A DNA stretch of 64,000 bases from positions 52,285 to 116,284 of the IMG/VR virus record IMGVR_UViG_3300029610_000357; one strand, given 5' to 3'. Under the pieces are notes generated by a model. That model was not told the DNA's origin. It saw only the letters and a list, made by a program, of their open reading frames with translations, and did not search any database. This DNA comes from a virus. Lineage: Duplodnaviria > Heunggongvirae > Uroviricota > Caudoviricetes. Numbering within the stretch: the first letter of the stretch is position 1; each line of letters begins with the position of its first letter. Shown in pieces: positions 2,253 to 58,961 of this stretch. A program made the position numbers and the translations under genes.

Positions 2253-2262
2253 TTGGACATAG

Positions 2263-2335
<73 letters not shown>

Positions 2336-2519
2336 ACAAAAAGAGTACATTGTAACTACCAACAATGTACTCAAACTTAGAAAAGAGGTATAAATTATGA
2401 TTCCTACAAGAAATCTTAATAGCTTTGTAAATCTTTCTGAGGTATGAAACAACAGTAGAAAAGCGCAATAATCAAAACTTCACAAGAAAGGAGATAATAT
2501 GATTCCTCAGAAAGATTAA

Positions 2520-2591
2520 CAGGGATAACTGGATTTGAACCAGTGAATACAGCAGTCAAAGTGCTGTGCCTTACCGCTTGGCGATATCCCT
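2520..2591 (-). tRNA. tRNA-Gln(UUG)
   Basis: Acceptor AGGGATA/TATCCCT, anticodon arm CAGCA-CTTTGAC-TGCTG, T-arm ACTGG-TTCAAAT-CCAGT. Confidence 0.9.
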
Positions 2592-3204
2592 ATATGTATT
2601 TTAATTTTAAAGCAGGTCTTCACCTTACAGTCATTTGTGGAATAGTTTGTTCTGCAACATAGTAGATAAGTCTGAGCTTCGAGGAGCGACCTCTAACTTC
2701 TTACCTAAGTCTAAAAGACCAGTTCTATGACATGATCAATACATGCAATGTCAACCCACCATTCAGAATTAAGTTTTATTGTTATATACTCTATTAGCAT
2801 ATATATTCATTTTGAATTTGAACTTGCCCTTAACTGACTTGAGCGACATACCAGCGACTTTTCTTATACACTGTCTTTTGAACAGCTTCACATCAAACTA
2901 CATTATTTGGCTTTTCCACCTTTTACGTACCTGCCAGAGTACGCATTGAAGTGGATTATTCTCCACAGGAGCGTCTATTGTTGTAGCGAAAAGTTCTGTG
3001 CGTTAACCAGACCAAAATGCTGCACAATATCCATTTGCTTGAGAGTTTCTCTCTTGTCCATATCAGATCACTCCGACATAAAAAGAGACACAAAGAACGT
3101 ATCCGTACAATGTATCTCTCCAATTCGACATATGTGCCTAGAATATCTCTCGGACTCATGGCATTGAGTTTTATAACCGAGTTGCTTATGTTTTAAAATA
3201 CAAA
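2592..3204 (-). other. 613-nt ORF-free spacer inside the tRNA array (possible co-transcribed structured RNA)
   Basis: Flanked directly by tRNA-Gln and tRNA-Trp. Only short overlapping shadow ORFs without RBS, and no tRNA fold found by eye. Confidence 0.3.
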
Positions 3205-3276
3205 CACCCTAAGCTGGATTTGAACCAGCACGAACGGTTTTGGAGACCGTCATTCTACCAACTAAATTATTAGGGC
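3205..3276 (-). tRNA. tRNA-Trp(CCA)
   Basis: Acceptor GCCCTAA/TTAGGGT, anticodon arm ACGGT-CTCCAAA-ACCGT, T-arm GCTGG-TTCAAAT-CCAGC. Confidence 0.85.
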
Positions 3277-3283
3277 GATATTA

Positions 3284-3357
3284 CTGACATGACAGGACTC
3301 GAACCTGCAACACCAACGTCCGTAGCGTTGTGCTCTGTCCAGTTGAGCTACATGTCA
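3284..3357 (-). tRNA. tRNA-Arg(ACG)
   Basis: Acceptor TGACATG/CATGTCA, D-arm GCTC..GAGC, anticodon arm CAACG-CTACGGA-CGTTG, T-loop TTCGAGT. Confidence 0.9.
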
Positions 3358-3570
3358 ATAACGAATATGTATTTACCTCTCATACGTACACACTGGCGAG
3401 ACAATACATATTTCTAAAAAGCAACAGTGTGTAAGTATTGCTTTTCTAGGGCGAACTGAAGTGATGAACTCCATCAGAATATCAGAAGAGGTATACATTC
3501 CAATATCCACCAACCATCAGGGTGTTCGCATATTTTTTGGTTAATCTATCGTATAGTTACTAACCTAATC

Positions 3571-3656
3571 ATCCCTGTTGAGGGAATCGAACCCACTCGT
3601 GACCGAAGCCGCAAAATTTACAGTTTTGCCTGTCTCCTTAGCAGTATAAACAGGGA
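3571..3656 (-). tRNA. tRNA-Tyr(GUA), type II with long variable arm
   Basis: Acceptor TCCCTGT/ACAGGGA, anticodon arm GCAAAA-CTGTAAA-TTTTGC, variable arm GGCTTCGGTCAC, T-loop TTCGATT. Confidence 0.8.
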
Positions 3657-3695
3657 TATTAGCCCACAAGTCCGAAGAACATTGTAGGACAAACA

Positions 3696-3770
3696 TCACA
3701 CCAACGAGAGTCGAACTCGTATTGCATCCGTGAAAGGGATGTGTCCTAAAACCATTTAGACGATGGTGCG
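3696..3770 (-). tRNA. tRNA-Glu(UUC)
   Basis: Acceptor CGCACCA/TGGTGTG, Glu-type D-arm GTCT..AGGAC, anticodon arm CATCC-CTTTCAC-GGATG, T-arm ACGAG-TTCGACT-CTCGT. Confidence 0.85.
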
Positions 3771-3776
3771 ATTTAG

Positions 3777-3868
3777 CGTACGGACTGGGCTACGACCCCA
3801 GGATACACATGTTCGTATGTATACAGGATTAGCAATCCTGCGCATTAAACCAGCTCTGCCACCCGTAC
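3777..3868 (-). tRNA. tRNA-Ser(GCU), type II
   Basis: Acceptor GTACGGG/TCCGTAC, anticodon arm CAGGA-TTGCTAA-TCCTG, 22-nt variable arm, T-arm CTGGG-GTCGTAG-CCCAG (non-canonical T-loop). Confidence 0.8.
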
Positions 3869-22814: not shown

Positions 22815-23132
22815 ATGCCAGAGGATGTAAAGTACCGTCCAGTTCCTAAAGGATATAAAGGTGTTTTTAGACTAAGAAAAGATATAATATCCTTAAACAA
22901 TGAATTTTATGGGGCATGGGGCATTATAGACGACAAATTTTTAATCGATGAAGATTATTATAATGAAGAAAATGAATTTAAGGGAGATCCTAGTCATGTA
23001 ATTCGAGCAAGTTTTTACCCTAGCCTTTTAGATCTGCAAAGAGGTGAAAATCTTATTAGAGAAGTAGGAAGAGTGTCTGGGACAGAAAAGTGTTGTTATA
23101 TTCCTTTTAAAAGAAAAAATAATTACTATTAA
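22815..23132 (+). CDS. KNNYY-tail family member 15 (group D)
   Basis: KYRPVPKGYKGVFRLRKD; ends KRKNNYY*. Confidence 0.8.
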   Translation: MPEDVKYRPVPKGYKGVFRLRKDIISLNNEFYGAWGIIDDKFLIDEDYYNEENEFKGDPSHVIRASFYPSLLDLQRGENLIREVGRVSGTEKCCYIPFKRKNNYY

Positions 23133-23147
23133 GAAAGAGGTGATCAA

Positions 23148-23462
23148 ATGGAGAATGATGGTAAATATCCTCCAGTACCTAAAGGATACAAGGGTATTTT
23201 TAGAGTTAGACCTGATATGATAGAGTCAAATAATGTGTTCTATGGAGCATATGGTATTACAGGAAAAGGTATTATAGAAGACAGTGATTATTTAGAAGAC
23301 CAAGGAGAATTTACAGGAAATCCACATCATATAATTAAAGCCATTTTTTATCAAACCTATGAAGACTTAAAGAGCAGAGAATGTATGATACAGGGAAGGC
23401 CTGTTAAAATAAGAGAATGCTTGCTTTATCCAGTATCCAACAAGAAGAACAATTACTGGTAG
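23148..23462 (+). CDS. KNNYY-tail family member 16 (group D)
   Basis: KYPPVPKGYKGIFRVRPD; ends NKKNNYW*. Confidence 0.8.
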   Translation: MENDGKYPPVPKGYKGIFRVRPDMIESNNVFYGAYGITGKGIIEDSDYLEDQGEFTGNPHHIIKAIFYQTYEDLKSRECMIQGRPVKIRECLLYPVSNKKNNYW

Positions 23463-23472
23463 GTGGTTTAAG

Positions 23473-23742
23473 ATGATAGAAGCAAAAGATATTAAAGAGG
23501 GTATGAAAATTAAGTATGAAGGCTGGGAATGGACTATAACAAAAGTGTTTGCAAAATATAATAATGTCTTGGATCTTCGGAATGGTTATACTAAAAAAAT
23601 CATTGATCAAGATAGTTCATTGATTTGGATTGAAGCATCGAAGAGACGCTTTGTGCCTGAATCAATGACTATGGAATGGTTCTTTAAAGAACTGAAATAT
23701 GGAACAATAAAGATTTTAAATCGTAAAAATAATTATTATTGA
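23473..23742 (+). CDS. KNNYY-tail family member 17 (group C)
   Basis: IKEGMKIKYEGWEWTITKV; ends NRKNNYY*. Confidence 0.8.
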   Translation: MIEAKDIKEGMKIKYEGWEWTITKVFAKYNNVLDLRNGYTKKIIDQDSSLIWIEASKRRFVPESMTMEWFFKELKYGTIKILNRKNNYY

Positions 23743-23748
23743 GGTGAT

Positions 23749-24039
23749 ATGATGTATTTAGAAGACATTAAAGTTGGTCAGAGAGTGAATTATCGAGGTC
23801 ATTCCTATACAATAACTAAAAATGTTGTAAAGCGATGGAAAACAATAAGCCCCCATTCCTTATATTCATACATTAAGATAAGTACAAATTATTATAGATC
23901 ACGAATGTATTTCCAAAGAGTGGAAGACAAAAGTGAATCAGTTGACGGATTTTGGTTATTATATGACGAGATTGAAGAAAAAATGGATCGAGGGCTTATT
24001 AAATTTTTGAACATGTCAAAGAAAAATAATTATTATTAA
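23749..24039 (+). CDS. KNNYY-tail family member 18 (group C)
   Basis: IKVGQRVNYRGHSYTITKN; ends SKKNNYY*. Confidence 0.8.
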   Translation: MMYLEDIKVGQRVNYRGHSYTITKNVVKRWKTISPHSLYSYIKISTNYYRSRMYFQRVEDKSESVDGFWLLYDEIEEKMDRGLIKFLNMSKKNNYY

Positions 24040-24054
24040 AGAGGGTGTTACAAA

Positions 24055-25347
24055 GTGAACGAGATCAATAAAAGGAAATTAGAACTGTTCATGGATGATC
24101 AGCTATGGAGACAAAATATCACACATCAGCAAAGCAAAGGTGTACATAGAGATGTATTAAGAATTGTATGTGATCCAGAATACAAAGCACGGCTTTTAGG
24201 AATGATCTGGGATGGTAATTACAAAATTGCACCTCCGTATGTAGTAGAAATTCCTAAAGACAATGGAAAAGTAAGAGAAGTGTATGTTAATCAGCCAATT
24301 GACAGATTTGTTATGACACAAATCAATTATGTTTATATGCAATTATATGGTCATATGATTCATCCAAGATGTGTGTCTTATCAGAAAGGAATTGGAGTTA
24401 AAAATATCGTAGATGATATTTGTATGGAGCTTAAGAAACATCAAGGAGCTGTTGGGTATAAGGTAGACATTAGTAAGTATTTTGACAGTGTAAGCCGTGA
24501 GGTACTTAATGAAATGATTGATAAAATTGATACAGGAAGTCCTATTGATCAGATTGTAAGAGATTATTATATGGATGATTGTATCATTGATCAGAAAAGA
24601 AATGTTATTGAGAAATACAAAAGTATGACTCAAGGTTGTGCAGTGTCTACATTCTTTGCCAATTGTGTTTTAAGAGATGTAGACGAAGAGTTAAGCAAGA
24701 TGGATATTATTTATTACAGATATTCAGATGATATCTTGATGGTTGGTAAGGATGCAGATAAGGCTTTGAAGATGTTAGGAGAGATGTTAGAAACAAAAGG
24801 ACTTACATTAAATCCCAAAAAGGTAGAAACAGTCAGTACAGATCAATGGTTTACATTCTTAGGAGTGCGAATTAATGGACAGAAGAGAAGTTTTTCTGAA
24901 AAGAGCTTAAAGGAATTTCAGAAACACATTAGAGAATATGTAAATAAGAAAGCAGGAATTGGTAGCGTAAAAGTTGCAATCAGACAAATTAATAAATATC
25001 TGTATTTGAATTTCTTAAGGAATCCGAATGAGTTTGGTTGGGCTGAGTATTTCTTTAGTATTGTGAATGTCGAAGATGATATTAAGACATTAGATATGTG
25101 GATTAAAGATACACTCAGAGGTTTGTATACTGGTAAGAGAAAGGTTGGTGGTCTTGGTGTAAATAAAGTAACTGATGAATGTGGAGTATTAAGAGGGAAA
25201 GGAAAAAACGTAAGTGCAAATCTTGGTAAAACAAGAAGCGATAAAGACATTTTAGAAGAAGCAGGATATATCAGCATGAATGAAATGTATCATCAGTTTA
25301 GATACAGTAAAGAATTGTACAGGGCTTCATTGACGGCTTTATCTTAA
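24055..25347 (+). CDS. reverse transcriptase (stand-alone, class unassigned)
   Basis: RT motifs IPKDNGKVREVY, YKVDISKYFDSV, QGCAVSTFFANCVL, YYRYSDDILMVG (YxDD), LTLNPKKVE, FTFLGVRI, plus a ~140-aa C-terminal extension. GTG start 15 nt after the last KNNYY gene. Confidence 0.9.
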   Translation: MNEINKRKLELFMDDQLWRQNITHQQSKGVHRDVLRIVCDPEYKARLLGMIWDGNYKIAPPYVVEIPKDNGKVREVYVNQPIDRFVMTQINYVYMQLYGHMIHPRCVSYQKGIGVKNIVDDICMELKKHQGAVGYKVDISKYFDSVSREVLNEMIDKIDTGSPIDQIVRDYYMDDCIIDQKRNVIEKYKSMTQGCAVSTFFANCVLRDVDEELSKMDIIYYRYSDDILMVGKDADKALKMLGEMLETKGLTLNPKKVETVSTDQWFTFLGVRINGQKRSFSEKSLKEFQKHIREYVNKKAGIGSVKVAIRQINKYLYLNFLRNPNEFGWAEYFFSIVNVEDDIKTLDMWIKDTLRGLYTGKRKVGGLGVNKVTDECGVLRGKGKNVSANLGKTRSDKDILEEAGYISMNEMYHQFRYSKELYRASLTALS

Positions 25348-25403
25348 GTCAAACCTAACACGAGGTACTTATGTGAGATGTTATAAGTCAAATTAGATCA
25401 CTA

Positions 25404-25480
25404 GGAAGCTCTGGTGATTCCATGCATGGTTGATAACCAGCATTCCATCACCACTTCTTCCCAGATCTTATCATCATAAA
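25404..25480 (+). other. hairpin-box module A1: ~58-nt imperfect hairpin followed by ATCATAAA
   Basis: GGAAG-ctc-TGGTGA..ATGC-a-TGGTT-gat-AACCA-GCAT..TCACCA-ctt-CTTCC, then ATCATAAA at 25473-25480. Confidence 0.5.
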
Positions 25481-25563
25481 GGGAATTTAGAAACGTGTTA
25501 TTAACATGAACATAAGAAAGTTACTATGGACGTTGTATGTGAGACAATGGAATTACATATAAG

Positions 25564-25640
25564 GCGCGTTGAAGCTGCAGGATGACTGGCAATACATTGA
25601 CCAAGTCATCCCTGCAGCTCAACCGCTTTATAATCATAAA
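25564..25640 (+). other. hairpin-box module A2
   Basis: GCGCGTTGAAGCTGCAGGATGACTGG-loop-CCAAGTCATCCCTGCAGCTCAACCGC, then ATCATAAA at 25633-25640. Confidence 0.55.
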
Positions 25641-25721
25641 AGAATAAAGGAACATAGCATTATTGTGAGCATACAAACAAGCTAACATGGGCTAAACATA
25701 CGAGACGTTGAATCATACATA

Positions 25722-25815
25722 ATAAGGGCACAGCTGCCTTATGCAGCGGGAAATTAGTCTCCTCGACAATAATTTCACCGCTGCCACAGGCGTGCGTGCC
25801 CTTATTAATCATAAA
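25722..25815 (+). other. hairpin-box module A3
   Basis: ATAAGGGCAC...GCAGCGGGAAATT-loop-AATTTCACCGCTGC...GTGCCCTTAT, then ATCATAAACCAATAGAGAAA at 25808. Confidence 0.55.
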
Positions 25816-25864
25816 CCAATAGAGAAAACATGTCGCCAATGTAGAGTATGTAGAAAGGAAAATC

Positions 25865-26401
25865 ATGAAAAGTTTATTTAAAGTATTGTATGAGCTGTCA
25901 CAAGGAAATACCTTAATGATTAATAGTTGCATGTCTTTTAGAATGACAACTGATCTATACAAAAGACAAGTGAGATTTAAGAAGTATAAGGTTGTTGATC
26001 AAGGAAGCGTAGTAAGTGATGTGACATTGTGTAGTGGAGAAGTTATTGAGTATGATGACTTAATAAAGGAAGGAGATTTAGATTTTATATTGCCAACTGA
26101 ATTAAATGAAAAAGAAAATCCATATGAGGTTATTGAATACCTGTATGGATTATTTTATTGCTCAGTTCCTGATAGATCTGCTGTTCAAAAGAAACAAAAT
26201 TTTATAGCAAAAGGATTAAATGATTTTGGGGCAAATGATTTTACAGGAATGAGAAGAAGTGAAATTCAGCCATTGTTAGAGCTCTATGTGTTACTCGCTG
26301 GAATGAAAGGATGGATCACTTGGAAAGATGATAAGTTGTTCTTTTGGAAAGGTGGACATAAGAGTTTGTATATATATAGAAAATGGATTTTAGGTTATTA
26401 G
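25865..26401 (+). CDS. hypothetical protein
   Basis: ORF track; AGGAAA RBS. Confidence 0.5.
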   Translation: MKSLFKVLYELSQGNTLMINSCMSFRMTTDLYKRQVRFKKYKVVDQGSVVSDVTLCSGEVIEYDDLIKEGDLDFILPTELNEKENPYEVIEYLYGLFYCSVPDRSAVQKKQNFIAKGLNDFGANDFTGMRRSEIQPLLELYVLLAGMKGWITWKDDKLFFWKGGHKSLYIYRKWILGY

Positions 26402-26418
26402 GAAAGGAAGAATGTAAA

Positions 26419-27180
26419 ATGAATGTAGAAAAGAGTTTAGAAAAAGCAGGAGTAGACACAAAGAAATATCCTTCATTAGCTATGCAGAATATTTTAGGAT
26501 ATCAAGGGAAAGCGTTTGCAGAAAATTCATACCTGTATAAAAAGATTATGGAAGATGGACATGTGTTTAATCCTTATATACACAGAAGATGGCTTCCATA
26601 TCAGTTTATGAATGCTGTCCATTGGACAAGACGGTATTATGTAGAGACTATTGGTTATGTAAAGATGCTTGAAAAAGAATTGATGCGTGGCAATAATGTA
26701 GATAATTGGAAATATATGTACGATAAATTTGGAAAAGAGCTTAATGCTTTATATACACTCTCAAAAAGAGATAAAAAAGCGTATAAAGAAAGATGGGCTG
26801 CTTTTGGAAGGTTAGAAATTTTGAATTATTTTTCTCAAGGGTTTGATTGTATAGGGATAAATCAGAATACATTCTTGGAAATGAAAAATTTATTAGCGGA
26901 TGAAAGATTTGAAGCTGAACGATATTGGCGATATACTAATTGTTTATTGTATAAACAGTCACAATTTAGAAAAGATTTGGTAACAACAACTTTCCATTCA
27001 GGAATTTATTTTACATTAAAACACATTATGATGTTTGATTATGACAAATTACATATGTCTTCATCCCAAAAAGAAAGCCTAAAACGAATTAGAGAAGACT
27101 TAATTAATGGAGATTTCAATTATGAGCAGGCTTTTACAATTATTGAAGATTACGTAGCAAGATATTACAATCCAAGATAG
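26419..27180 (+). CDS. hypothetical protein
   Basis: ATG 26419 after a GGAAAGGAAG RBS. Confidence 0.55.
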   Translation: MNVEKSLEKAGVDTKKYPSLAMQNILGYQGKAFAENSYLYKKIMEDGHVFNPYIHRRWLPYQFMNAVHWTRRYYVETIGYVKMLEKELMRGNNVDNWKYMYDKFGKELNALYTLSKRDKKAYKERWAAFGRLEILNYFSQGFDCIGINQNTFLEMKNLLADERFEAERYWRYTNCLLYKQSQFRKDLVTTTFHSGIYFTLKHIMMFDYDKLHMSSSQKESLKRIREDLINGDFNYEQAFTIIEDYVARYYNPR

Positions 27181-27193
27181 AGAGGGGAATTAT

Positions 27194-27691
27194 ATGCCAG
27201 AAGAAGTAAAGAAATTAACTATTAAAGAAGCAGATGAGTTTATTAAAAAGAAAGTAATCGGAGTTCTCATAAAAGCAGATGTAACAATAATAGTAAATGA
27301 ATTAGAAGCTATTTATGGAGATTCGTTAGCAAATGGAACGGTTGGAGATTCGTTTTATATTTATAACTGTCCAGAAAATTATGATGAATCAGATTATGAA
27401 GAGCTTGAGTATATTGACTATGATGATATGTGTGAAGATGATATTCGTGAAGAGAGAGCTGAAGCAGGAGATTTCAATCTTAAAGTATATAAGTGGTTCA
27501 TTGTTGATCCAAGATTTACAGAATTATTAAAAGATTTAGGAGAGATAGTTGCTCCAGATATTAACCTTTGGGGATGTTGTGAAGACATTGAAGACGCAAG
27601 CGAAGCAACTGTAATTGAAGAATTTTTTGAGAGAATGCAGATTCTGTATGGACAAAAGAATGCAATTATTACAGAAAAATTGAGTGCCTAA
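27194..27691 (+). CDS. acidic hypothetical protein
   Basis: ORF track; D/E-rich. Confidence 0.55.
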   Translation: MPEEVKKLTIKEADEFIKKKVIGVLIKADVTIIVNELEAIYGDSLANGTVGDSFYIYNCPENYDESDYEELEYIDYDDMCEDDIREERAEAGDFNLKVYKWFIVDPRFTELLKDLGEIVAPDINLWGCCEDIEDASEATVIEEFFERMQILYGQKNAIITEKLSA

Positions 27692-27743
27692 ACCAACAAA
27701 AGGGAGATGTACCCTTTGTAGAAATACTTATCATCAACCATCA

Positions 27744-27859
27744 AAGAAGGAGGATCTTCAGAACCCTCCGCATTGATTACGCTAAACATCACTTCGTAAT
27801 GATTTAGCAGCATCAACTGCGAGAGGAGTTCATGAAGATCCTCCTTCTTGAATCATAAA
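27744..27859 (+). other. hairpin-box module B1
   Basis: 17-bp perfect outer stem AAGAAGGAGGATCTTCA/TGAAGATCCTCCTTCTT enclosing further pairing, then ATCATAAATACATAGAGG at 27852. Confidence 0.55.
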
Positions 27860-27955
27860 TACATAGAGGAATACATCGAAGATAAGTTGTTCTACATTTT
27901 TTTTGCAAGAGATATACTTGCTGATTTAATGAATTGTGTTTGAATCACTCACATA

Positions 27956-28076
27956 ATCAGGAGAAAGGAGGCATAATCTCATCTCCTTCACTGGCAAGCC
28001 AGGAAGGACTTGATGAGATTACACTCCGCTGCGGCGTCATTGTGCCTCCATACTCCTGATCATGTTTGATCATAAA
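27956..28076 (+). other. hairpin-box module B2
   Basis: ATCAGGAG..GGAGGCA-TAATCTCATC..GATGAGATTA..TGCCTCC..CTCCTGAT, then ATCATAAACCAATAGAGAAA at 28069. The box plus 12 nt are identical to A3. Confidence 0.55.
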
Positions 28077-28149
28077 CCAATAGAGAAATATATCACCTCA
28101 CAATGAGTTAAATCTGTAACTATTAATTTACATAGAAAAGGAGAAACAG

Positions 28150-28722
28150 ATGAAAGCGATTTTTAAAGGAGAAACGGTTGTAAGAACTAAATTAACATTA
28201 GATACTGGGCTTGAGAAATTAGATGGATCTGATGTTAGGTATTTTGTAAGAGAGCCTAAACTGATACATGAGTGTACGAATGAAGATTGGGGGATTGTGT
28301 TAGAAAAAGATCTTTCATTCAATAAGATTATGCTTATTAATTCTTATATCGATGAAGTAGTTTTAGATGGAATTACACTTGAGTTTCCAGATATTGTATA
28401 TCTTAATCTTGAAGAAGATAAAGTAATTTTTGAAGTTGGTGGTTCTTATACAATTAAAGATAAAGACGAGGAAGAGAAAATTGAAACATACCACAAGCTT
28501 ATGGAAGCTTACAATAAGCAAGTAAGAACTAGAGAAGAGAACGAAGATGATTGCTGTGGTTGTGGATTCTGCTCAAAAGAGGGTGACTTCTCTGGAGAGG
28601 AATATGATGAAATAAAAGGGTTCAATGAAGAGGACATTGAAAAGAAAGCAATGGATGATCTAGATGATCTAAATGAAATTCTTACAGCATTCTTTGGGGA
28701 TGTTCCGGGATTCAAGTGTTAG
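28150..28722 (+). CDS. acidic hypothetical protein
   Basis: ORF track; GGAGAAA RBS. Confidence 0.55.
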   Translation: MKAIFKGETVVRTKLTLDTGLEKLDGSDVRYFVREPKLIHECTNEDWGIVLEKDLSFNKIMLINSYIDEVVLDGITLEFPDIVYLNLEEDKVIFEVGGSYTIKDKDEEEKIETYHKLMEAYNKQVRTREENEDDCCGCGFCSKEGDFSGEEYDEIKGFNEEDIEKKAMDDLDDLNEILTAFFGDVPGFKC

Positions 28723-28740
28723 TTAAAGATTGATATTGAG

Positions 28741-28769
28741 AGAGACACTTCGTATGAGGTGTCTCTTTT
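28741..28769 (+). terminator. rho-independent terminator
   Basis: AGAGACAC-loop-GTGTCTCT followed by TTT. Confidence 0.7.
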
Positions 28770-28807
28770 AGTATATAAATTTTTTAGAAAGGAGATGAAA
28801 AAGGAAG

Positions 28808-29596
28808 ATGGCAACAGAGTTTGACAAACGAATGAAAGCTTATGAATGTGTCTCAAGACAGTACTTAACAAGAAGAGTACCAGTTGCGATCAGAGTAGAT
28901 GGAAAGGCATTTCATACATTCACTAGAGGGTTTCAGAAACCGTTCGATGAAGTGCTTAGCAATGCAATGCAGGCCACAATGATGAAAATGTGTAGACAGA
29001 TTCAAGGTTGTGTGTTTGCTTACACACAGAGTGATGAAATTACATTTATTCTTATCGATTATCAGAAGCTAAATTCTGATGGCTGGTTTAACTACCGTAC
29101 TGATAAGATGTGTAGCATTGCAGCGAGTATGGCTACTATGGAGTTCAATAAGGTATTTAGTGCTTTTGTTTATGGATTTAAGGTAAACAAGGGAGAAGAC
29201 ATATCAAGTGAAGATATGGAAGTGCTTAAAGCCTATGAGAAATCTAAAGAACGTGGAGCTATGTTTGATGCTAGAGCATTTTCAATTCCAAAAGAAGAAG
29301 TTACGAATCTAATTTATTGGAGACAGCAAGACGCTATGAGGAATGCAGTTCAGATGGTTGGACAAGCATTTTATTCCCACAAAGAGCTTCAGGGTGTTAA
29401 TTGTGAGATGCTTAAAGAAATGTTACTGGCTGATAAGGGAATTGATTGGGATAAGATTCCTGTGAAATATCAGAGAGGTAGCTGTTGTGTCAAGGTTGAT
29501 GGTGAATGGACTATTGACAATAACATTTCTATCTTCAGAGGTAGTGACAGAGAGCAAATTGATAAGCTTGTGTTTGTTGAGAGTGAAGAGAACTGA
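28808..29596 (+). CDS. Thg1-like protein (tRNA-His guanylyltransferase family, 3'-5' polymerase)
   Basis: FDKRMKAYE...PVAIRVDGKAFHTFTRGFQKPFD...AYTQSDEITFIL matches the Thg1 catalytic pattern (RxDG..F, SDE). Confidence 0.75.
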   Translation: MATEFDKRMKAYECVSRQYLTRRVPVAIRVDGKAFHTFTRGFQKPFDEVLSNAMQATMMKMCRQIQGCVFAYTQSDEITFILIDYQKLNSDGWFNYRTDKMCSIAASMATMEFNKVFSAFVYGFKVNKGEDISSEDMEVLKAYEKSKERGAMFDARAFSIPKEEVTNLIYWRQQDAMRNAVQMVGQAFYSHKELQGVNCEMLKEMLLADKGIDWDKIPVKYQRGSCCVKVDGEWTIDNNISIFRGSDREQIDKLVFVESEEN

Positions 29597-32481: not shown

Positions 32482-32631
32482 GGGGACATAGCTTAATAGG
32501 TAAAGCAAAACTATATTTTTCCATAAAGAACTTAAAACTAAAATTTTCATATTAAATATAAACATTTTGTACCTCCCTATTGTAATAAAATAACACTTAT
32601 ATTTATGTGGGTTCGAGTCCCACTGTCCCCA
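32482..32631 (+). tRNA. tRNA-like gene interrupted by a ~75-nt AT-rich insertion; anticodon unresolved
   Basis: GGGGACA-TA-GCTT-AATAGGTA-AAGC ... GTGGG-TTCGAGT-CCCAC-TGTCCCC-A. Acceptor, D- and T-arms are perfect, but no 5-7-5 anticodon arm can be drawn. Confidence 0.45.
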
Positions 32632-32922: not shown

Positions 32923-33390
32923 ATGAAGAAATTAGAATATAAAAAATATTATCATTTGATTTATAAAAGACGAAATGGAGACTTAACCTTGCAGCCATCA
33001 ACAATAGATTATGATGACTCAATGTGTCATGCAGAGGATATGTGCGAGTGTATGATATTCTGTGGGTTTTATGATAGTTGTCTAAATGTTGAAAAAGCAT
33101 GGAATACCATAAAGGAATTTGAAGGACAGAAGTTTACATGGAAAGATGTGGTAGAAATCAATGGAAAACACTATGCGGAGGAATTTCCAATTTCAGGGCT
33201 AATGGATAGTGAGGATGTTTATCAGATTGATGATTTCTTAGAGTCTGTTGGAAGGAAATATAATGTATATCCGGGAAACATTAAGACGTATATGATGGAC
33301 GGAATTGCTTTCGATCCTAAAGAAGTAGAGTTTGGTGCTGAAAGTTGCGGATGCTATATCAATGGAATTCCTGAAGAATGTTATGAGTAA
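32923..33390 (+). CDS. hypothetical protein
   Basis: ATG 32923 after an AGGTGAGG RBS. Confidence 0.55.
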   Translation: MKKLEYKKYYHLIYKRRNGDLTLQPSTIDYDDSMCHAEDMCECMIFCGFYDSCLNVEKAWNTIKEFEGQKFTWKDVVEINGKHYAEEFPISGLMDSEDVYQIDDFLESVGRKYNVYPGNIKTYMMDGIAFDPKEVEFGAESCGCYINGIPEECYE

Positions 33391-54629: not shown

Positions 54630-56039
54630 ATGACAGATTTAGAATTTTATTCATTACACAATCATACTGAATATTCAAATATAAGGTTAATTGATTGTAT
54701 CAATAAGATTCCTATGTTAATCAAAAGAGCGGTTAAATTGGGCATGAAAGGAATTGCGATCACTGATCATGAAACATTAAGTGGTCATATTCAGGCAATG
54801 ATTTATGTCCGTGATGAGAAAAAGAAAGGTAACATTCCCAAGGATTTTAAATTGATTCTTGGGAATGAAATCTATCTAGTCAATGGAACCGCAGATTACA
54901 TAAAGGAAAATTTTAAAGCTGGAGATGGGAAGTTGTTTTATCATTACATTCTTTTAGCAAAGGATGAAATTGGTCATAGACAGCTTAGAGAATTGAGTTC
55001 AAATGCATGGGACAGATCTTTTCAAACAGGAAAAATGACAAGAGTTCCAACTGAGAAATCAGACCTTGAGAAGATCATAAGAAAAGAACCGGGTCATTTG
55101 ATTGCATCGACAGCTTGCTTAGGCGGAGAGCTTCCTACTTTGATTATGCAGATGGAAGAAGCTCAAAGTGAACTGGAAGTATATGAAGCCAAATGTAAAA
55201 TTGATGATTTCGTTCGATGGAACATTGATTTGTTTGGTGAAGATTTCTTTTTTGAAATGCAACCGGGAGCATCTGAAGAACAAGAAAAGGTTAATAAATG
55301 GTTACTTAAATTGTCAAAAGTTTATGGTGTTAAGTGTATCATAACAACCGATTCACATTATTTATCTAAGAATTCTCAGATGATTCATAAAGCGTATTTG
55401 CAAAGTAAAGAGGAAGAAAGAGAAGTAGATGATTTCTATCAGACTACATATTTAATGGAAATTCCAGAAATGTACGATTACATGAAGTACTTTGACGAAG
55501 AAACTATAGCAGAAGCTATCAACAATACAGCGATCATTGGAAACAAGATTAAAGAGTATTCATTAAGTTGTTCTACGATCGTCCCTGAAGCAGAAGTACC
55601 AAAATTTGAAGTAGAAAATTATTTTGAAAAATATTATCAGAGATTTACAACACTGCAGGAATACGCAAATAGCAGCAACATCTATGACAGATATCTGTTG
55701 TACTTAATTGAAAAGGGATATCAGAAGAAAGAAATTCATGCAAAAGTTCGCAGGAATGACTTTACCGAAGAGCAAAAAGTGGAACGAATAGCTATTGAAT
55801 TACAAGAGATGGCATTGGTTACAGAGAAGATTAAGTCAAGTATTTCTTCCTATTATATATCAACCTTAGAACTAATCAATATCATGTGGAAAGAGGGAGA
55901 TAGCTTGGTAGGGGTAGCCAGAGGATCAGTTACTGGTATGTATACAATGTATTTAATTGATTTAATACAAATGAATCCTTTAGATTGGGGATTGCCTCAT
56001 TGGAGACATATTTCCCATGAGAAAGCAGAGTTATCGGAT
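54630..56039 (+). CDS. dnaE: DNA polymerase III alpha (DnaE-like), exon 1 (PHP domain)
   Basis: FYSLHNHTEYS..., ITDHETLSG. The exon ends ...HEKAELSD; the track ORF continues into the intron and stops. Confidence 0.85.
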
Positions 56040-56387
56040 TTGAAAAAGTCCGCTTATATAGTGATATATATGACAAAATGTGGTGAACCCATAAATATGG
56101 GGTGTGCGTAAGTGCTAACGGTATCAGTTAAATAAGGCAAGGCTCGAATACGCTGACTAAGAGAACCTACGGTCTTGAAAGAGATAGCAGGCAATACCGT
56201 GCTAAGTAAAGAAGTGTAACGACTAAATTGGACAAACTTATAAAACTGTCCTAAGAGGAATAAGGTGAAAGTCCTTATCTGTAGTGCCACACACGAGAAA
56301 TCCTTGTATAAGCAAGCCAATGGATTAACATTGGGTGATGAGATAGTCTAGTCCGTACAGAAATATCACGAAAGTGACGGTAGATCG
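56040..56387 (+). ncRNA. group I self-splicing intron, ORF-less (348 nt)
   Basis: 5' exon CGGAU pairs with the intron guide GUCCG (10 nt in), giving a U.G wobble at the splice site. The intron ends GGUAGAUCG and contains GAGAUAGUCUAGUCC. Joining 56039/56388 restores ELSD-VDIDS (the PDIDID region) in frame with 56559..58961. Confidence 0.75.
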
Positions 56388-58961
56388 GTTGATATTGATT
56401 CACAAAAGAATCGTAGAGAACAAATTATCTCTGCTGTAAAAGATCGAAAAGGAGAAAGAAGAGTATTAAATTGTTGTACATTCAAAACAGAAGGTAGCAA
56501 ATCGGCTATTTTAACTTCATGTAGAGCTTTAGGAATTGATCCAGATACTTCTAGTTATTTGGCTGGAATGGTACCAGTAACAAGAGGTGCTACATGGAGT
56601 TTACATGATTGTATATACGGAAACGAAGAAAAAGAACGAGAAGCAGTGCCGGGGTTTGAGAATGAAATGAGAAGTCATGATCAATTACTTGACATTGCAA
56701 TGGGAATTGAAGGACTAATTTGTGGAAGATCTATTCATGCTTCTGCAGTGTATGTCTTTAATGAAGATTTTATTGCTCATAATGCTCGAATGAAAGCCCC
56801 AAATGGAGTGTTAACAACTCAGTTTAATATGGCTGATTCAGATGAATGTGGTGGGTTAAAGATGGATTTCTTAACGATTGAAGCGCTTGACAAGATCCGC
56901 CTGACAATGGAACAGCTCATTGATGCAGGGTATATGGAATGGCAAGGATCATTAAGAGAAACATATGATAAATATCTTCATCCAGATGTTCTTGATTATG
57001 AAACTAGAGAAATGTGGGATTGGGTAGCAGAAAACAAAGTTGTGGATCTGTTTCAGTTTAATACACAGACAGGATTACAGGCAGCAAGACGTATCCAACC
57101 TCATAGCTTGGAAGAATTGGCTGCAGCAAACTCTATTATGAGACTTATGGTAACAGAAGAGGGAGCTGAACAGCCGATTGATACTTATATTAGATTTAAA
57201 AATGATATTGGCCAATGGTATGACTTGATGAGAACGAAGTATCATTTGACTGATCATGAAATTGAAATTTTAGAGAAATACCTTAAATCCAATTATGGTG
57301 TAGGTGATACTCAGGAAATTGTAATGGAAATCAGTATGGATAAAGAGATTGCTGATTTTAGTGTTGCTGATAGCAATAAGCTGAGGAAAAGTATTGCAAA
57401 GAAGAAACCAGCTTTACAGCAAGCAATGAAAGAGCAATTTTTTGAGAGGGGAAAAGAAAACCATGCTTCAGATAATCTGTTGAACTACGTTTGGAAAGAA
57501 GTTGTAGGGAAACAGCTTGGGTATTCCTTTTCTAAGAATCATACCTATCCATACAGTGCTATAGGATTGCAGGAGTTAAATCTTGCATATCATTATCCGA
57601 TTATTTATTGGAATACAGCTTGCTTAACCGTAAATGCAGGAGCTGATGAAGAATCTAAAGGATCTAAGCAGTCTACAGATTACGGAAAAGTAGCAACGTC
57701 TATAGCACAAATGCAGAAGAGAGGTATTAAAATTCAAGCTCCACTGATTAACAAAGCGGAATTAGGATTTAAAGCCGATGAAGAGAACAATGCAATCTTA
57801 TTTGCATTAAAGAGTATTTCAGGAATCGGTGATGATGTAGTAGAAATTATAAGACAAGCAAGGCCATTCGCTTCATTTGAAGATTTTTATGAAAGAATGG
57901 TTGCCACAAAGCTAGTCAAAACAGGTCAGGTAATTCAGTTGATTAAAGCAGGTTGCTTTGATGAATTTGATGAAAACAGAGTAGATTTGCTTTATACGAT
58001 CGTAAGATTATGTAAATGTAATCTAATCTCAAGTCTGACTAAATCACAATTGAATCGTATGCAGGAATTACAATTTATGTATCCAGAGCTTAATCTTATT
58101 CCAGATGAAGTTTTAGATGGAATTCAAGTATACAATTTCTCACAGTATGTAAAAGAATTGAAAGTTGTAAAGAAATATATTGATCCGTCAAGAAAAATGT
58201 TGAAGTGTGGCTATCATGATGAAATCATTGAACTAGATGATAGAGCAATGCAATTTTTCATAAATCACTACACAGAAGATTCCATCTATGACGTTAAAGA
58301 TGAATATTACTTGATTTACAAAAAGAAATTCAATAAAGAAACTGAAAAGAAATTAGAGTCTCTTAGAGAATATCTGGCTAACCCGAATACATTACTTAAG
58401 TATAATAAAGCTCTCGTGAAAGATGAGGCCAAGAAAGTGGTTACAGGAACCACATCTCATATGGAAATGGAATCACTGTGTGTTTATGTACATGAACATG
58501 AATTGGCAGACCTTAACAAAGATGAATTCAATATCGTCAATTTCTTTAATCTTTCAGAAGAACCAGTAGTTGCATCTACGTATAAAAGAAAGGTTAAGAG
58601 GGTTGAGAATGGACAAGAGATTCAAGAAGTCAAAGAGTTCCCTAAGTATTTTATTAGTAAGATCTGGGGAACTGTCTTAGACAAGAATAAGGATCGACAT
58701 ACGGTTACATTATTGACCCCTGAGGGAGTTGTAAATGTGAAATATACCAAAGGAGCTTTCTTACATTATAACAAGAAGACCTCAATAGAAGAGTCTTGGT
58801 TCAAGAGAGGCCAAATAATAATGGTTACTGGGTATCGCAATGGCGATATGTTCAGATGCTATAACTATGGAGACACAATCTTCAAACATACTACATCATT
58901 GATTACAAACATCGGAGAGAAAGGAGTAGAGGTAATGACAGAAAGGATGAGAGAAGCATGA
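56388..58961 (+). CDS. dnaE: DNA polymerase III alpha (DnaE-like), exon 2
   Basis: Own translation from 56388: VDIDSQKNRREQIISAVKDRKGERRVLNCCTFKTEGSKSAIL..., 57 codons upstream of and in frame with the track ORF. Confidence 0.85.
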   Translation, partial: VDIDSQKNRREQIISAVKDRKGERRVLNCCTFKTEGSKSAILTSCRALGIDPDTSSYLAGMVPVTRGATWSLHDCIYGNEEKEREAVPGFENEMRSHDQLLDIAMGIEGLICGRSIHASAVYVFNEDFIAHNARMKAPNGVLTTQFNMADSDECGGLKMDFLTIEALDKIRLTMEQLIDAGYMEWQGSLRETYDKYLHPDVLDYETREMWDWVAENKVVDLFQFNTQTGLQAARRIQPHSLEELAAANSIMRLMVTEEGAEQPIDTYIRFKNDIGQWYDLMRTKYHLTDHEIEILEKYLKSNYGVGDTQEIVMEISMDKEIADFSVADSNKLRKSIAKKKPALQQAMKEQFFERGKENHASDNLLNYVWKEVVGKQLGYSFSKNHTYPYSAIGLQELNLAYHYPIIYWNTACLTVNAGADEESKGSKQSTDYGKVATSIAQMQKRGIKIQAPLINKAELGFKADEENNAILFALKSISGIGDDVVEIIRQARPFASFEDFYERMVATKLVKTGQVIQLIKAGCFDEFDENRVDLLYTIVRLCKCNLISSLTKSQLNRMQELQFMYPELNLIPDEVLDGIQVYNFSQYVKELKVVKKYIDPSRKMLKCGYHDEIIELDDRAMQFFINHYTEDSIYDVKDEYYLIYKKKFNKETEKKLESLREYLANPNTLLKYNKALVKDEAKKVVTGTTSHMEMESLCVYVHEHELADLNKDEFNIVNFFNLSEEPVVASTYKRKVKRVENGQEIQEVKEFPKYFISKIWGTVLDKNKDRHTVTLLTPEGVVNVKYTKGAFLHYNKKTSIEESWFKRGQIIMVTGYRNGDMFRCYNYGDTIFKHTTSLITNIGEKGVEVMTERMREA

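What the first reader, a model, noticed from the sequence alone, without database searches (positions are those of the whole stretch)
27692..28149. Second cluster of hairpin-box modules; box region identical to module A3
Two more modules lie here (27744-27859 and 27956-28076). B2 ends in TGATCATAAACCAATAGAGAAA and A3 ends in TAATCATAAACCAATAGAGAAA, so 20 nt are conserved while the stems differ completely. The 3' strands of A3 and B2 share an internal-loop signature, CCGCTGC..GGCGT..GTGCC. B1 carries a 17-bp perfect outer stem. Conserved flank with free stem sequence points to a structure-plus-box signal rather than a repeat family spread by duplication.
Basis: seen in the sequence. Interest (0 to 1): 0.6.

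Follow-up and report, generated by a model that had tools for sequence, protein, structure and literature searches.

The report
Phage reverse-transcriptase hairpin RNA array
The two hairpin-plus-box modules are real and belong to a tandem array of folded non-coding RNA units that accompany a phage-encoded reverse transcriptase of the UG27 group, a system predicted in 2022 whose function is still unknown in the literature I could read.

Summary
Two long hairpins (27744-27849, 27951-28065) are each followed by the box ATCATAAA-NN-MATAGAG, and 20 nt are identical between B2 and A3. The A3/B2 "internal-loop signature" is not above chance.

The gene just upstream of cluster A (24055-25347) is a UG27 reverse transcriptase. 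The genes between the clusters match its two known accessory families, 346 and 337. Cluster A is therefore the putative "three stem-loop" ncRNA of Mestre et al. 2022. Cluster B is a second array after the accessory genes, which that paper does not mention.

Each module is the core of a larger unit of about 150-200 nt. A bipartite closing stem (Pa, Pb) and a pseudoknot helix (P1) enclose the hairpin and the single-stranded box. All three helices covary across 238 units from about 50 phage loci. A unit after gene 337 is present in 28 of 52 distinct loci.

The box occurs nowhere else in the 64 kb, so it is not a general promoter or terminator signal.

The most likely function is a cis-encoded scaffold and template RNA for the reverse transcriptase. 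This resembles retron and DRT2 RNAs, with the variable hairpin probably being the part copied. No step of reverse transcription is shown here. It is a new member of a known kind, with architectural detail that may be new.

The parts
24055..25347 (+). Reverse transcriptase gene (430 aa), UG27 group, class 2 UG/Abi
   Evidence: PADLOC RT_UG27 E = 3e-168, 558 bits, full length; the next best model is UG26 at 171 bits. Pfam RVT_1. The YSDD motif (residues 223-226) is invariant in 22 homologues.
25356..25516 (+). Unit A1. P1 25356-62/25494-500; Pa 25368-74/25510-16; Pb 25378-83/25502-07; hairpin 25395-25468; box about 25471-25493.
   Evidence: Helix table; box profile hit; weak hairpin, z = -2.3.
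25524..25676 (+). Unit A2. P1 25524-28/25653-57; Pa 25533-40/25669-76; Pb 25544-50/25660-66; hairpin 25558-25632; box 25633-25652.
25685..25851 (+). Unit A3. P1 25685-89/25829-33; Pa 25696-701/25846-51; Pb 25705-10/25837-42; hairpin 25720-25807; box 25808-25828.
25865..26401 (+). Accessory gene, RT-associated family 346 (178 aa)
   Evidence: PADLOC RTas346 E = 2.4e-13. An iterated profile finds it next to the RT in 73 of 79 loci.
26383..27180 (+). Accessory gene, RT-associated family 337 (265 aa)
   Evidence: PADLOC RTas337 E = 5e-10. Found in 67 of 79 loci. The AlphaFold model is all-alpha, pLDDT 75, with no PDB fold match.
27194..27691 (+). Third gene of the block (165 aa). It is clade-specific and lies between gene 337 and cluster B.
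   Evidence: No family hit. Present in L001-L010; a gene at the same position is called in L199-L201.
27706..27896 (+). Unit B1, whole
27706..27711 (+). B1 P1a (GATGTA). It pairs with 27872-27877 (TACATC) and forms a pseudoknot because it crosses Pa and Pb.
   Evidence: 100% paired in 9 sequences, with one-sided changes only to G.U.
27717..27732 (+). B1 5' strands of the closing stem: Pa 27717-23 (TGTAGAA) and Pb 27726-32 (ACTTATC)
   Evidence: Helix 2 is 99.2% paired with 2 compensatory pairs.
27744..27849 (+). B1 long variable hairpin, with a 17-bp perfect outer stem
27852..27871 (+). B1 box ATCATAAATACATAGAGGAA, single-stranded between the hairpin and P1b
27872..27896 (+). B1 3' strands: P1b 27872-77, Pb' 27881-87 (GATAAGT), Pa' 27890-96 (TTCTACA)
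27911..28114 (+). Unit B2, whole
27911..27938 (+). B2 5' strands: P1a 27911-16 (GATATA), Pa 27923-30 (GATTTAAT), Pb 27933-38 (ATTGTG)
   Evidence: Helices 5 and 6 are 100% paired, with 4 compensatory pairs.
27951..28065 (+). B2 long variable hairpin with an internal bulge (about 28024-28040)
28069..28088 (+). B2 box ATCATAAACCAATAGAGAAA, identical to the A3 box
28089..28114 (+). B2 3' strands: P1b 28089-94 (TATATC), Pb' 28099-104 (CACAAT), Pa' 28107-14 (GTTAAATC)

Best explanation
Cluster B consists of two units, B1 (27706-27896) and B2 (27911-28114), of a tandem array of structured non-coding RNAs. The array belongs to a phage UG27 reverse-transcriptase system with this layout: RT, units A1-A3, gene 346, gene 337, a 165-aa gene, units B1-B2.

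Each unit is read on the + strand as RNA. It folds into a bipartite closing stem (Pa, Pb) that encloses a short junction, a long imperfect hairpin of free sequence, and a conserved single-stranded box of about 20 nt. A 5-7 bp pseudoknot helix (P1) joins the 5' tail to the stretch just 3' of the box.

Shown here: the architecture, its covariation, its restriction to UG27 loci, and its strand.

Inferred:
- The conserved junction (box, P1, Pa/Pb) docks the RT.
- The segment between the Pb stem and the P1 pseudoknot is the template.
- My preferred version (about 0.45) is that DNA synthesis starts in or next to the box and copies the variable hairpin into minus-sense single-stranded DNA, one species per unit.
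- The alternative (about 0.25) is that only the box is copied, as a short repeat template as in DRT9 and DRT10.
- The biological role for the phage is unknown.

The confidence of 0.8 refers to the units being RT-linked structured RNAs of the UG27 system, not to either version of the template model.
For: - RT identity and accessory genes. Synteny holds in 60-plus loci.
- Mestre et al. 2022 (PMC9226505) predicted a stem-loop ncRNA in the RT-346 gap of UG27 phages.
- Every locus examined has 1-9 hairpin-plus-box units with a period of about 160-190 nt. All are on the RT strand and all lie after the RT.
- Pa, Pb and P1: cognate against non-cognate complementarity in 238 unique units gives p = 1.8e-52, 6e-42 and 2.4e-30. 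Control window pairs are weak. All five window units carry all three helices at fixed offsets, each with a different sequence.
- RNAalifold, run on an unfitted MAFFT alignment of 27 post-337 units, recovers Pa and Pb with 11 of 13 pairs compensatory. 94.8% of cells are paired against 80.2% in shuffles (0/500) and 29-45% when the partners are slid.
- Cluster B alignment: 97.1% paired, and 24 pairs with two-sided changes against 5.3 in shuffles (0/500).
- Strand: in the scaffold helices, one-sided changes go to G.U in + sense. All neighbouring genes are on the + strand.
- A unit after gene 337 is found in 28 of 52 unique loci and in 0 of 48 control segments. Both gaps persist in relatives with 85, 70 and 64% RT identity.
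- Template inference: in class 2 UG RTs the template lies between stem anchors or a pseudoknot (DRT10 preprint). In DRT2 the template is the least conserved part of the ncRNA (PMC12039810). Here the hairpin is the least conserved part: pi = 0.033-0.051 against 0.017-0.024 for the scaffold, and it is replaced outright in L199.
- Single mismatches in the hairpins are Y.Y 149 against R.R 66 in + sense, and G.U is about equal to A.C (45 against 51). This pattern fits selection acting also on the complementary strand.
Against: - No expression or cDNA data are available. Reverse transcription of these units is pure inference.
- Family-wide wobble counts at helix edges are mixed: Pa 19 G.T against 19 A.C, and P1 is dominated by a conserved A.C.
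- No covarying A-B-A' pattern was found inside the box. No direct repeat flanking the hairpin exceeds chance. No start or stop microhomology is therefore demonstrated.
- P1 in the post-337 units is only about 4 bp and could not be put in register on the MAFFT alignment.
- The accessory proteins gave no functional clue.
- A 2026 preprint that mentions UG27 74 times could not be read. It may contradict the details given here.
Confidence: 0.8

Rival explanations
1. Transcription punctuation: each hairpin is a terminator or attenuator, and the box is a phage or host promoter that drives the next gene or a short RNA.
For: - The last box of each cluster lies 37-61 nt before a gene start.
- B2 can be read as TTGATC-17-TATATC.
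- A T8 run follows unit B1.
Against: - No sigma-70-like enrichment: 29 sites against 29.0 expected. No + strand terminator-like site falls inside the clusters.
- The box is absent from the other 60 kb of phage genes.
- The same box core (ATC..TA.AG) is kept in phages with about 34% to about 57% GC in the array. Mestre et al. assign UG27 phages to Bacteroidetes and Firmicutes hosts, whose promoters differ (promoter difference from my own knowledge).
- The position that would serve as the -10 element is P1b, which covaries with P1a.
- The T run varies in length among close relatives and is absent in L199.
Confidence: 0.04
2. RNA processing or stability elements: RNase III-type sites or protective 3' structures that separate and stabilise the cistrons of the operon, independent of the RT.
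For: - The hairpins are long and imperfect and lie between cistrons.
- Units sit 7-14 nt apart, so cleavage between them is plausible.
- This role is compatible with the main explanation as an extra function.
Against: - Within the fetched loci, every box-profile hit lies just after the RT or just after gene 337. The other intergenic gaps of the window have no box-profile hit.
- Up to 9 tandem copies occur with no cistron between them.
- A conserved single-stranded box plus a pseudoknot is more than a processing site needs.
Confidence: 0.07
3. DNA-level elements: cruciforms, replication or recombination sites, or small mobile palindromic repeats.
For: Long inverted repeats can extrude as cruciforms. 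Watson-Crick covariation alone does not separate RNA from DNA.
Against: - There is strand asymmetry: Y.Y 149 against R.R 66 mismatches.
- G.U is used in + sense in the scaffold helices.
- A pseudoknot needs a single strand.
- The hairpins share no sequence and have no copies elsewhere in the window.
- Orientation relative to the RT is always the same.
Confidence: 0.03
4. The functional RNA is antisense. The reverse complement of the box (TATGAT) acts as a -10 element, and hairpin RNAs are made from the minus strand.
For: - Three of five boxes give minus-strand promoter-like matches at 9 of 12 positions.
- The reverse-complement strand of the hairpins folds better in 155 of 228 cases.
Against: - A transcript starting at the box would lack Pa', Pb' and P1b, which covary with partners on the far side of the hairpin.
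- The -35-like part is the variable P1b.
- One-sided changes in the scaffold favour G.U in + sense.
- No ORF of 100 aa or more outside a + strand gene lies on the minus strand beyond about 12 kb of the window.
Confidence: 0.04

Closest known systems
UG27-associated putative ncRNA (Mestre et al., NAR 2022, PMC9226505)
   Same: Same RT group, same accessory families 346 and 337, same phage setting. Long stem-loops lie in the RT-346 gap, which is cluster A here.
   Different: The paper describes one putative ncRNA 'with three long stem-loops' in that gap only, not validated. Here each stem-loop is a self-contained unit closed by Pa/Pb and a pseudoknot. Unit number ranges from 1 to 9. Further units follow gene 337, or here a third gene. 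The paper's supplementary figure was not available, so the overlap in detail is uncertain.
Retron msr-msd RNA
   Same: A long hairpin of free sequence sits next to a conserved RT-recognition part, and the whole is closed by a terminal inverted repeat (a1/a2 compared with Pa/Pb). (Own knowledge of retrons.)
   Different: The RT is not in the retron clade. The units lie downstream of the RT, in tandem arrays. They carry a pseudoknot. No conserved branching G could be identified.
DRT2 (UG2) ncRNA, Wilkinson et al. 2024 (PMC12039810)
   Same: Class 2 UG RT with a pseudoknotted cis ncRNA. The template lies 3' of a stem and 5' of a pseudoknot and is the least conserved part. The variable segment here has the same placement.
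   Different: DRT2 has one ncRNA, upstream of the RT, and is a host defence system. Its template encodes a repeat ORF and is flanked by ACA motifs. Here there are multiple units, the system is phage-borne, the variable part is a palindrome, and no flanking microhomology was demonstrated.
DRT10 (UG17) and DRT9 (UG28) ncRNAs (preprint 10.64898/2026.06.29.735271)
   Same: These are the nearest characterised RT relatives by profile score: UG17 101 bits and Drt9 98 bits. In both, a short single-stranded template is framed by two stem anchors. The box here is likewise framed by the hairpin and P1.
   Different: No A-B-A' covariation was found in the box. No SLATT or other known effector is present. 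The 5' anchor stem here is 20-45 bp long and hypervariable.

Membership tests
UG27 reverse-transcriptase system | RT belongs to the UG27 group | tested here: met
   PADLOC RT_UG27 558 bits, E = 3e-168, covering residues 5-428 of 430.
UG27 reverse-transcriptase system | Adjacent genes of RT-associated clusters 346 and 337 | tested here: met
   RTas346 E = 2.4e-13 and RTas337 E = 5e-10. Order RT-346-337 as in most loci.
UG27 reverse-transcriptase system | Structured non-coding region with long stem-loops between the RT and cluster 346 | tested here: met
   Three units at 25356-25851. Described for the family.
UG27 reverse-transcriptase system | Encoded in a phage genome | tested here: met
   Phage replication genes in the window. 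Identical RT on IMG/VR contigs of 70-134 kb.
UG27 reverse-transcriptase system | RT-dependent DNA made from the ncRNA | not testable with these tools
   Needs sequencing of nucleic acids from infected or expressing cells.
Retron | RT of the retron clade | tested here: not met
   NCBIfam retron_St85_RT 72.9 bits against a cut-off of 235. PADLOC retron RT models score at most about 59 bits, against 558 for UG27.
Retron | Single msr-msd RNA upstream of the RT, closed by a1/a2 repeats | tested here: not met
   A closing stem exists (Pa/Pb), but there are 5 units, all downstream of the RT, in two arrays.
Retron | 2'-5' branched msDNA primed from a conserved G | not testable with these tools
   No conserved G follows P1a in all units. 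The chemistry needs experiment.
DRT2 (UG2) | RT equivalog | tested here: not met
   NCBIfam Drt2 53 bits against a cut-off of 390.
DRT2 (UG2) | Template flanked by repeated trinucleotides for template jumping | tested here: inconclusive
   The direct repeat between J1 and the box start is no longer than chance family-wide: 3.93 against 3.89 nt. Repeats of 2-3 nt cannot be tested.
DRT10/DRT9 type (short repeat template) | A-B-A' template between two stem anchors | tested here: inconclusive
   The box is framed by the hairpin and P1. No identity-type covariation appears at any offset.
Intrinsic terminator plus promoter module | U run directly after the stem; -35/-10 hexamers; spread over the genome | tested here: not met
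   No + strand terminator-like site in the clusters, and promoter-like sites at the chance level. The box occurs only at the RT locus.
Diversity-generating retroelement | Template and variable repeat pair near the RT | tested here: not met
   No direct repeat of the units occurs elsewhere in the window apart from the 20-nt box. The RT's best profile is UG27.
Any Rfam family | Match to a curated covariance model | tested here: not met
   Only sub-threshold microRNA-precursor hits on the hairpins.

The most novel reading that the evidence does not exclude
One phage reverse transcriptase serves a library of independent, pseudoknot-closed template RNAs. There are 1-9 in tandem after the RT, plus one or two more after the accessory genes. 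Their hairpin cassettes are swapped freely between related phages. Each is copied into its own hairpin single-stranded DNA. This would be a multi-template retroelement: an array organisation with no counterpart among retrons or the single-ncRNA DRT systems. Its products would act on the host, for example as decoys or sponges for DNA-binding defence or repair proteins.
Probability: 0.3. Interest if true: 0.75.

Novelty: new member of a known kind. Interest (0 to 1): 0.5.

Why it matters
UG27 is a large phage-borne reverse-transcriptase family. Mestre et al. counted 1447 dereplicated gut phage genomes that carry it, and found no defence enrichment for it. I could read no paper that establishes its function.

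This analysis turns a vague "stem-loop region" into a defined, testable RNA unit with exact helices, a conserved single-stranded box and a variable cassette. It also shows that units flank the accessory genes on both sides.

That gives precise constructs for RT-binding and cDNA assays. A cultured phage-host pair carries the system: Bacteroides phage BS-TP1 on B. salyersiae.

If the hairpins are copied into DNA, this would be a phage counterpart of retron and DRT biology with an array layout.

Tried and rejected
- General promoter or terminator signal: rejected.
- A3/B2 'internal-loop signature': not significant.
- Hairpins as copies of other window sequence, or of each other: none found.
- Site 33314, a 2-mismatch box: it lies inside a coding region with no hairpin, so it is chance.
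- A-B-A' repeat inside the box: no covariation.
- Direct repeat flanking the hairpin: at the chance level.
- Strand from wobble pairs in the hairpins: G.T 45 against A.C 51, uninformative. Helix-edge counts were mixed.
- Hypervariability among close relatives: hairpin diversity is only about twice that of the scaffold and similar to the RT gene.
- Function of gene 337 from its fold: the model is acceptable (pLDDT 75) but no PDB match has E below 1.
- Gene 346: model unusable at pLDDT 39.
- Rfam: no family.
- INPHARED megablast of the locus: no match.
- The window-clade box profile did not reach distant loci. A family profile and per-locus profiles were needed.
- P1 on the post-337 alignment: subclades are out of register, so it was not counted there.
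- The 2026 'Minerva' preprint could not be opened. Only term counts were obtained.

Full report
**1. Observation**

The region 27692-28149 is a non-coding gap between a 165-aa ORF (27194-27691) and a 190-aa ORF (28150-28722). It holds two long imperfect hairpins.
- B1 has arms 27744-27760 and 27833-27849, 17/17 complementary, and the stem continues inward.
- B2 has arms 27951-27977 and 28039-28065.

As RNA they fold far better than dinucleotide shuffles: z = -9.0 and -7.4, with 0 of 200 shuffles as stable. A2 and A3 give z = -8.6. A1 is weak at z = -2.3.

The box ATCATAAANNMATAGAG matches exactly at 25808, 27852 and 28069, and with one mismatch at 25633. All weaker matches are at the chance level. 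The A3 and B2 boxes are identical over 20 nt.

A profile built from the five boxes finds only those five sites in the 64 kb, all on the + strand.

The five hairpin sequences are no more alike than shuffles. The A3/B2 'signature' CCGCTGC..GGCGT..GTGCC is present but not significant (p = 0.51).

**2. Context**

The window is phage DNA. It encodes a split family-A-type DNA polymerase, a DnaB-like helicase, a primase, a RecD-like helicase, a tRNA cluster and a ROOL RNA. It matches IMG/VR contigs of 70-134 kb.

The ORF that ends 8 nt before cluster A (24055-25347) is a reverse transcriptase. It matches the PADLOC UG27 model end to end: E = 3e-168, 558 bits. The next model, UG26, scores 171 bits; UG17/DRT10 scores 101 and Drt9 scores 98. 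The YSDD catalytic motif is invariant in 22 homologues.

The two ORFs after cluster A match the RT-associated families 346 and 337.

Mestre et al. 2022 (PMC9226505) defined UG27 as a class 2 UG/Abi RT. They found it mostly in gut phages (1447 dereplicated genomes) and always with clusters 346 and 337. They predicted an unvalidated ncRNA 'with three long stem-loops' in the RT-346 gap. Cluster A is that element. Cluster B is not mentioned there.

**3. The family**

I fetched 79 loci around UG27 RTs, at 36-100% identity. I added three intermediate relatives at 85, 70 and 64% identity.
- The order RT, gap, 346, 337 holds in most loci.
- The gap is 200-1900 nt. It always holds 1-9 long hairpins with a period of about 160-190 nt.
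- Each hairpin is followed by a box with the family-wide core ATC-N6-9-TA-N-AG.
- A family profile finds 5-8 boxes per locus in the large, more GC-rich clade of loci L023-L079. All are on the RT strand and inside the gap.

**4. The unit is larger than 'hairpin plus box'**

An alignment-free search looked for complementarity between the 60 nt before and the 60 nt after each hairpin. It shows three long-range helices at fixed positions.
- Pa lies about -27 and +38 relative to the hairpin.
- Pb lies about -15 and +28.
- P1 lies about -38 and +22.

Flanks from the same unit (cognate) are far more complementary than non-cognate flanks from the same clade. The p-values are 1.8e-52 for Pa, 6e-42 for Pb and 2.4e-30 for P1. 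Control window combinations are weak (238 unique units).

All five window units carry all three helices, each with a different sequence.

| Unit | P1 | Pa | Pb |
|---|---|---|---|
| A1 | TAACACG/CGTGTTA | CTTATGT/ACATAAG | ATGTTA/TAACAT |
| A2 | CTATG/CATAG | TTGTATGT/GCATACAA | ACAATGG/TTATTGT |
| A3 | ACATG/CATGT | ACATAC/GTATGT | ACGTTG/CAATGT |
| B1 | GATGTA/TACATC | TGTAGAA/TTCTACA | ACTTATC/GATAAGT |
| B2 | GATATA/TATATC | GATTTAAT/GTTAAATC | ATTGTG/CACAAT |

P1b starts 20-21 nt after the ATC of the box in every unit. Pa and Pb are nested. P1 crosses both, so it is a pseudoknot.

The units are packed wall to wall: 25356-25516, 25524-25676, 25685-25851, and then 27706-27896, 27911-28114.

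**5. Formal covariation counts**

Post-337 units. I aligned 27 of them with MAFFT, not fitted to any structure.
- RNAalifold recovers Pa and Pb, with 11 of 13 pairs showing two-sided changes.
- 94.8% of cells are paired against 80.2 ± 1.2% in shuffles (0/500), and against 29-45% when the partners are slid.
- G.U cells in + sense (about 27) far outnumber A.C cells (4), although many of the G.U cells are inherited.

Cluster B. The alignment holds the window, seven close relatives and the 85% relative L199.
- 97.1% of cells are paired.
- 24 pairs have two-sided changes against 5.3 in shuffles (0/500).
- Both P1 helices are 100% paired.
- In the scaffold helices, one-sided changes go only to G.U in + sense.

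Together with the uniform + orientation of the genes, this points to a + sense RNA.

**6. The second cluster is a family feature**

The family box profile hits the + strand 115-133 nt after the stop codon of gene 337 in 28 of 52 distinct loci. It hits 0 of 48 control segments. Per-locus profiles agree for L017, L027, L032, L042, L060 and L073.

In the window's clade an extra gene (165 aa) sits between gene 337 and the units. Relatives at 85, 70 and 64% RT identity keep both gaps, with 2/2/1 units after the RT and 2/1/1 after the third gene. They share the same box, ATCATAAA..ATAKAG.

**7. How the parts evolve**

Among close relatives the scaffold is the most constrained part (pi = 0.017-0.024). 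The hairpins evolve about twice as fast (0.033-0.051), similar to the RT gene (0.040).

Between the window and L199 the scaffolds of B1 and B2 stay about 90% identical, while the hairpin interiors are unalignable.

Single mismatches in 228 hairpins are strongly asymmetric in + sense: Y.Y 149 (C.C 42) against R.R 66 (G.G 7). G.T (45) and A.C (51) are about equal. As a result the reverse complement folds better in 155 of 228 cases. The asymmetry excludes a strand-neutral DNA palindrome. It fits constraints acting on the complementary strand as well. This point is unexplained rather than proven.

**8. What it is not**

- Sigma-70-like promoters are at the chance level in 23000-29000 (29 sites against 29.0 expected), and no + strand terminator-like site lies in the clusters.
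- In the collection scan, the two longest related contigs returned carry the exact box only at these three sites, though the scan was truncated.
- The 2-mismatch site at 33314 is inside a gene and has no hairpin.
- No Rfam family matches.
- No hairpin sequence recurs elsewhere in the window.

**9. Mechanism (inference)**

In class 2 UG RTs studied so far, a cis ncRNA presents a template framed by stem anchors. In DRT2 the template lies 3' of a stem and 5' of a pseudoknot, and is the least conserved part of the RNA.

The UG27 unit has the same layout: Pb stem, junction, variable hairpin, conserved box, P1 pseudoknot.

I therefore propose that the RT docks on the conserved junction and copies the enclosed segment.
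- Preferred (about 0.45): synthesis runs from the box into the hairpin and gives one hairpin single-stranded DNA per unit.
- Alternative (about 0.25): only the box is copied.

Tests for start or stop microhomology were negative or inconclusive. The accessory proteins gave no clue.

A 2026 preprint that clearly treats UG27 could not be read. Its term counts are hairpin 33, cDNA 24, pseudoknot 12 and ssDNA 5. It did not rank among the top three results of a search that added 'tandem repeat', 'rolling-circle' and 'protein-primed', which suggests it holds few of those terms. These counts are only a lead.

**10. Verdict**

The element is the second array of cis-encoded structured RNA units of a phage UG27 reverse-transcriptase system, so it is a new member of a known, still poorly understood kind. 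Beyond the 2022 description, the following may be new:
- the unit architecture (bipartite closing stem plus pseudoknot);
- the range of 1-9 units;
- the conserved unit or units after the accessory genes;
- the cassette-like behaviour of the hairpin.

I could not check these points against the 2026 preprint.

Noticed in passing
window 2594-3205 (-), with tRNAs at 2262-3868 (-): A full-length ROOL RNA (Rfam RF03087, 306 bits) sits inside a cluster of seven tRNA genes: Thr, Gln, Trp, Arg, Tyr, Glu, Ser.
   Followed up: no
window 32482-32631 (+): A tRNA gene (Rfam 42.5 bits, E = 5.7e-8) has 93 nt where the model has 15 in the anticodon arm. That is an insertion or intron of about 78 nt. ARAGORN did not call it. 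A Thg1-like tRNA-His guanylyltransferase gene lies at 28808-29596.
   Followed up: partly
window 54630-56111 and 56559-58961 (+): The DNA polymerase is split into two ORFs separated by about 450 nt. Both match the same PHROG polymerase family, phrog_405. An intron or other intervening element is possible.
   Followed up: no
hairpins of 228 UG27 units (window and L012-L079): Single mismatches are pyrimidine-pyrimidine 149 against purine-purine 66 on the coding-sense strand (C.C 42, G.G 7). The reverse complement therefore folds better in 155 of 228 cases. This is unexplained; it may reflect selection on a cDNA copy.
   Followed up: partly
L199:10454-10893 compared with window 27692-28149: At 85% RT identity the scaffolds of B1 and B2 are about 90% identical, but the hairpin interiors cannot be aligned. 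The hairpins look like exchanged cassettes.
   Followed up: partly
window 27897-27904: A T8 run lies between units B1 and B2. Its length varies among 97-100% relatives (about 2-9 T), and it is absent in L199.
   Followed up: no
window 27747-27753 and 27965-27971: The 5' arms of both B hairpins contain AAGGAGG, a perfect Shine-Dalgarno-like string. In B1 it pairs with CCTCCTT; in B2 the partner strand is GTGCCTCC. No start codon follows, so this may be chance in purine-rich arms.
   Followed up: no
L202 (PQ571274.1, Bacteroides phage BS-TP1) 4486-7097: This cultured phage carries a UG27-like RT (38% identity) that is annotated 'tail protein'. A 1349-nt unannotated gap follows it and holds box-like profile hits. 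It is a usable experimental system.
   Followed up: partly
L051 and L052, 6010-7602: In two loci the RT and family-346 profiles hit the same 530-aa ORF. This suggests an RT-346 fusion, or a missed stop codon.
   Followed up: no
L056, L058, L070: In three loci genes 346 and 337 lie upstream of the RT instead of downstream. A box-like hit still follows the RT.
   Followed up: no
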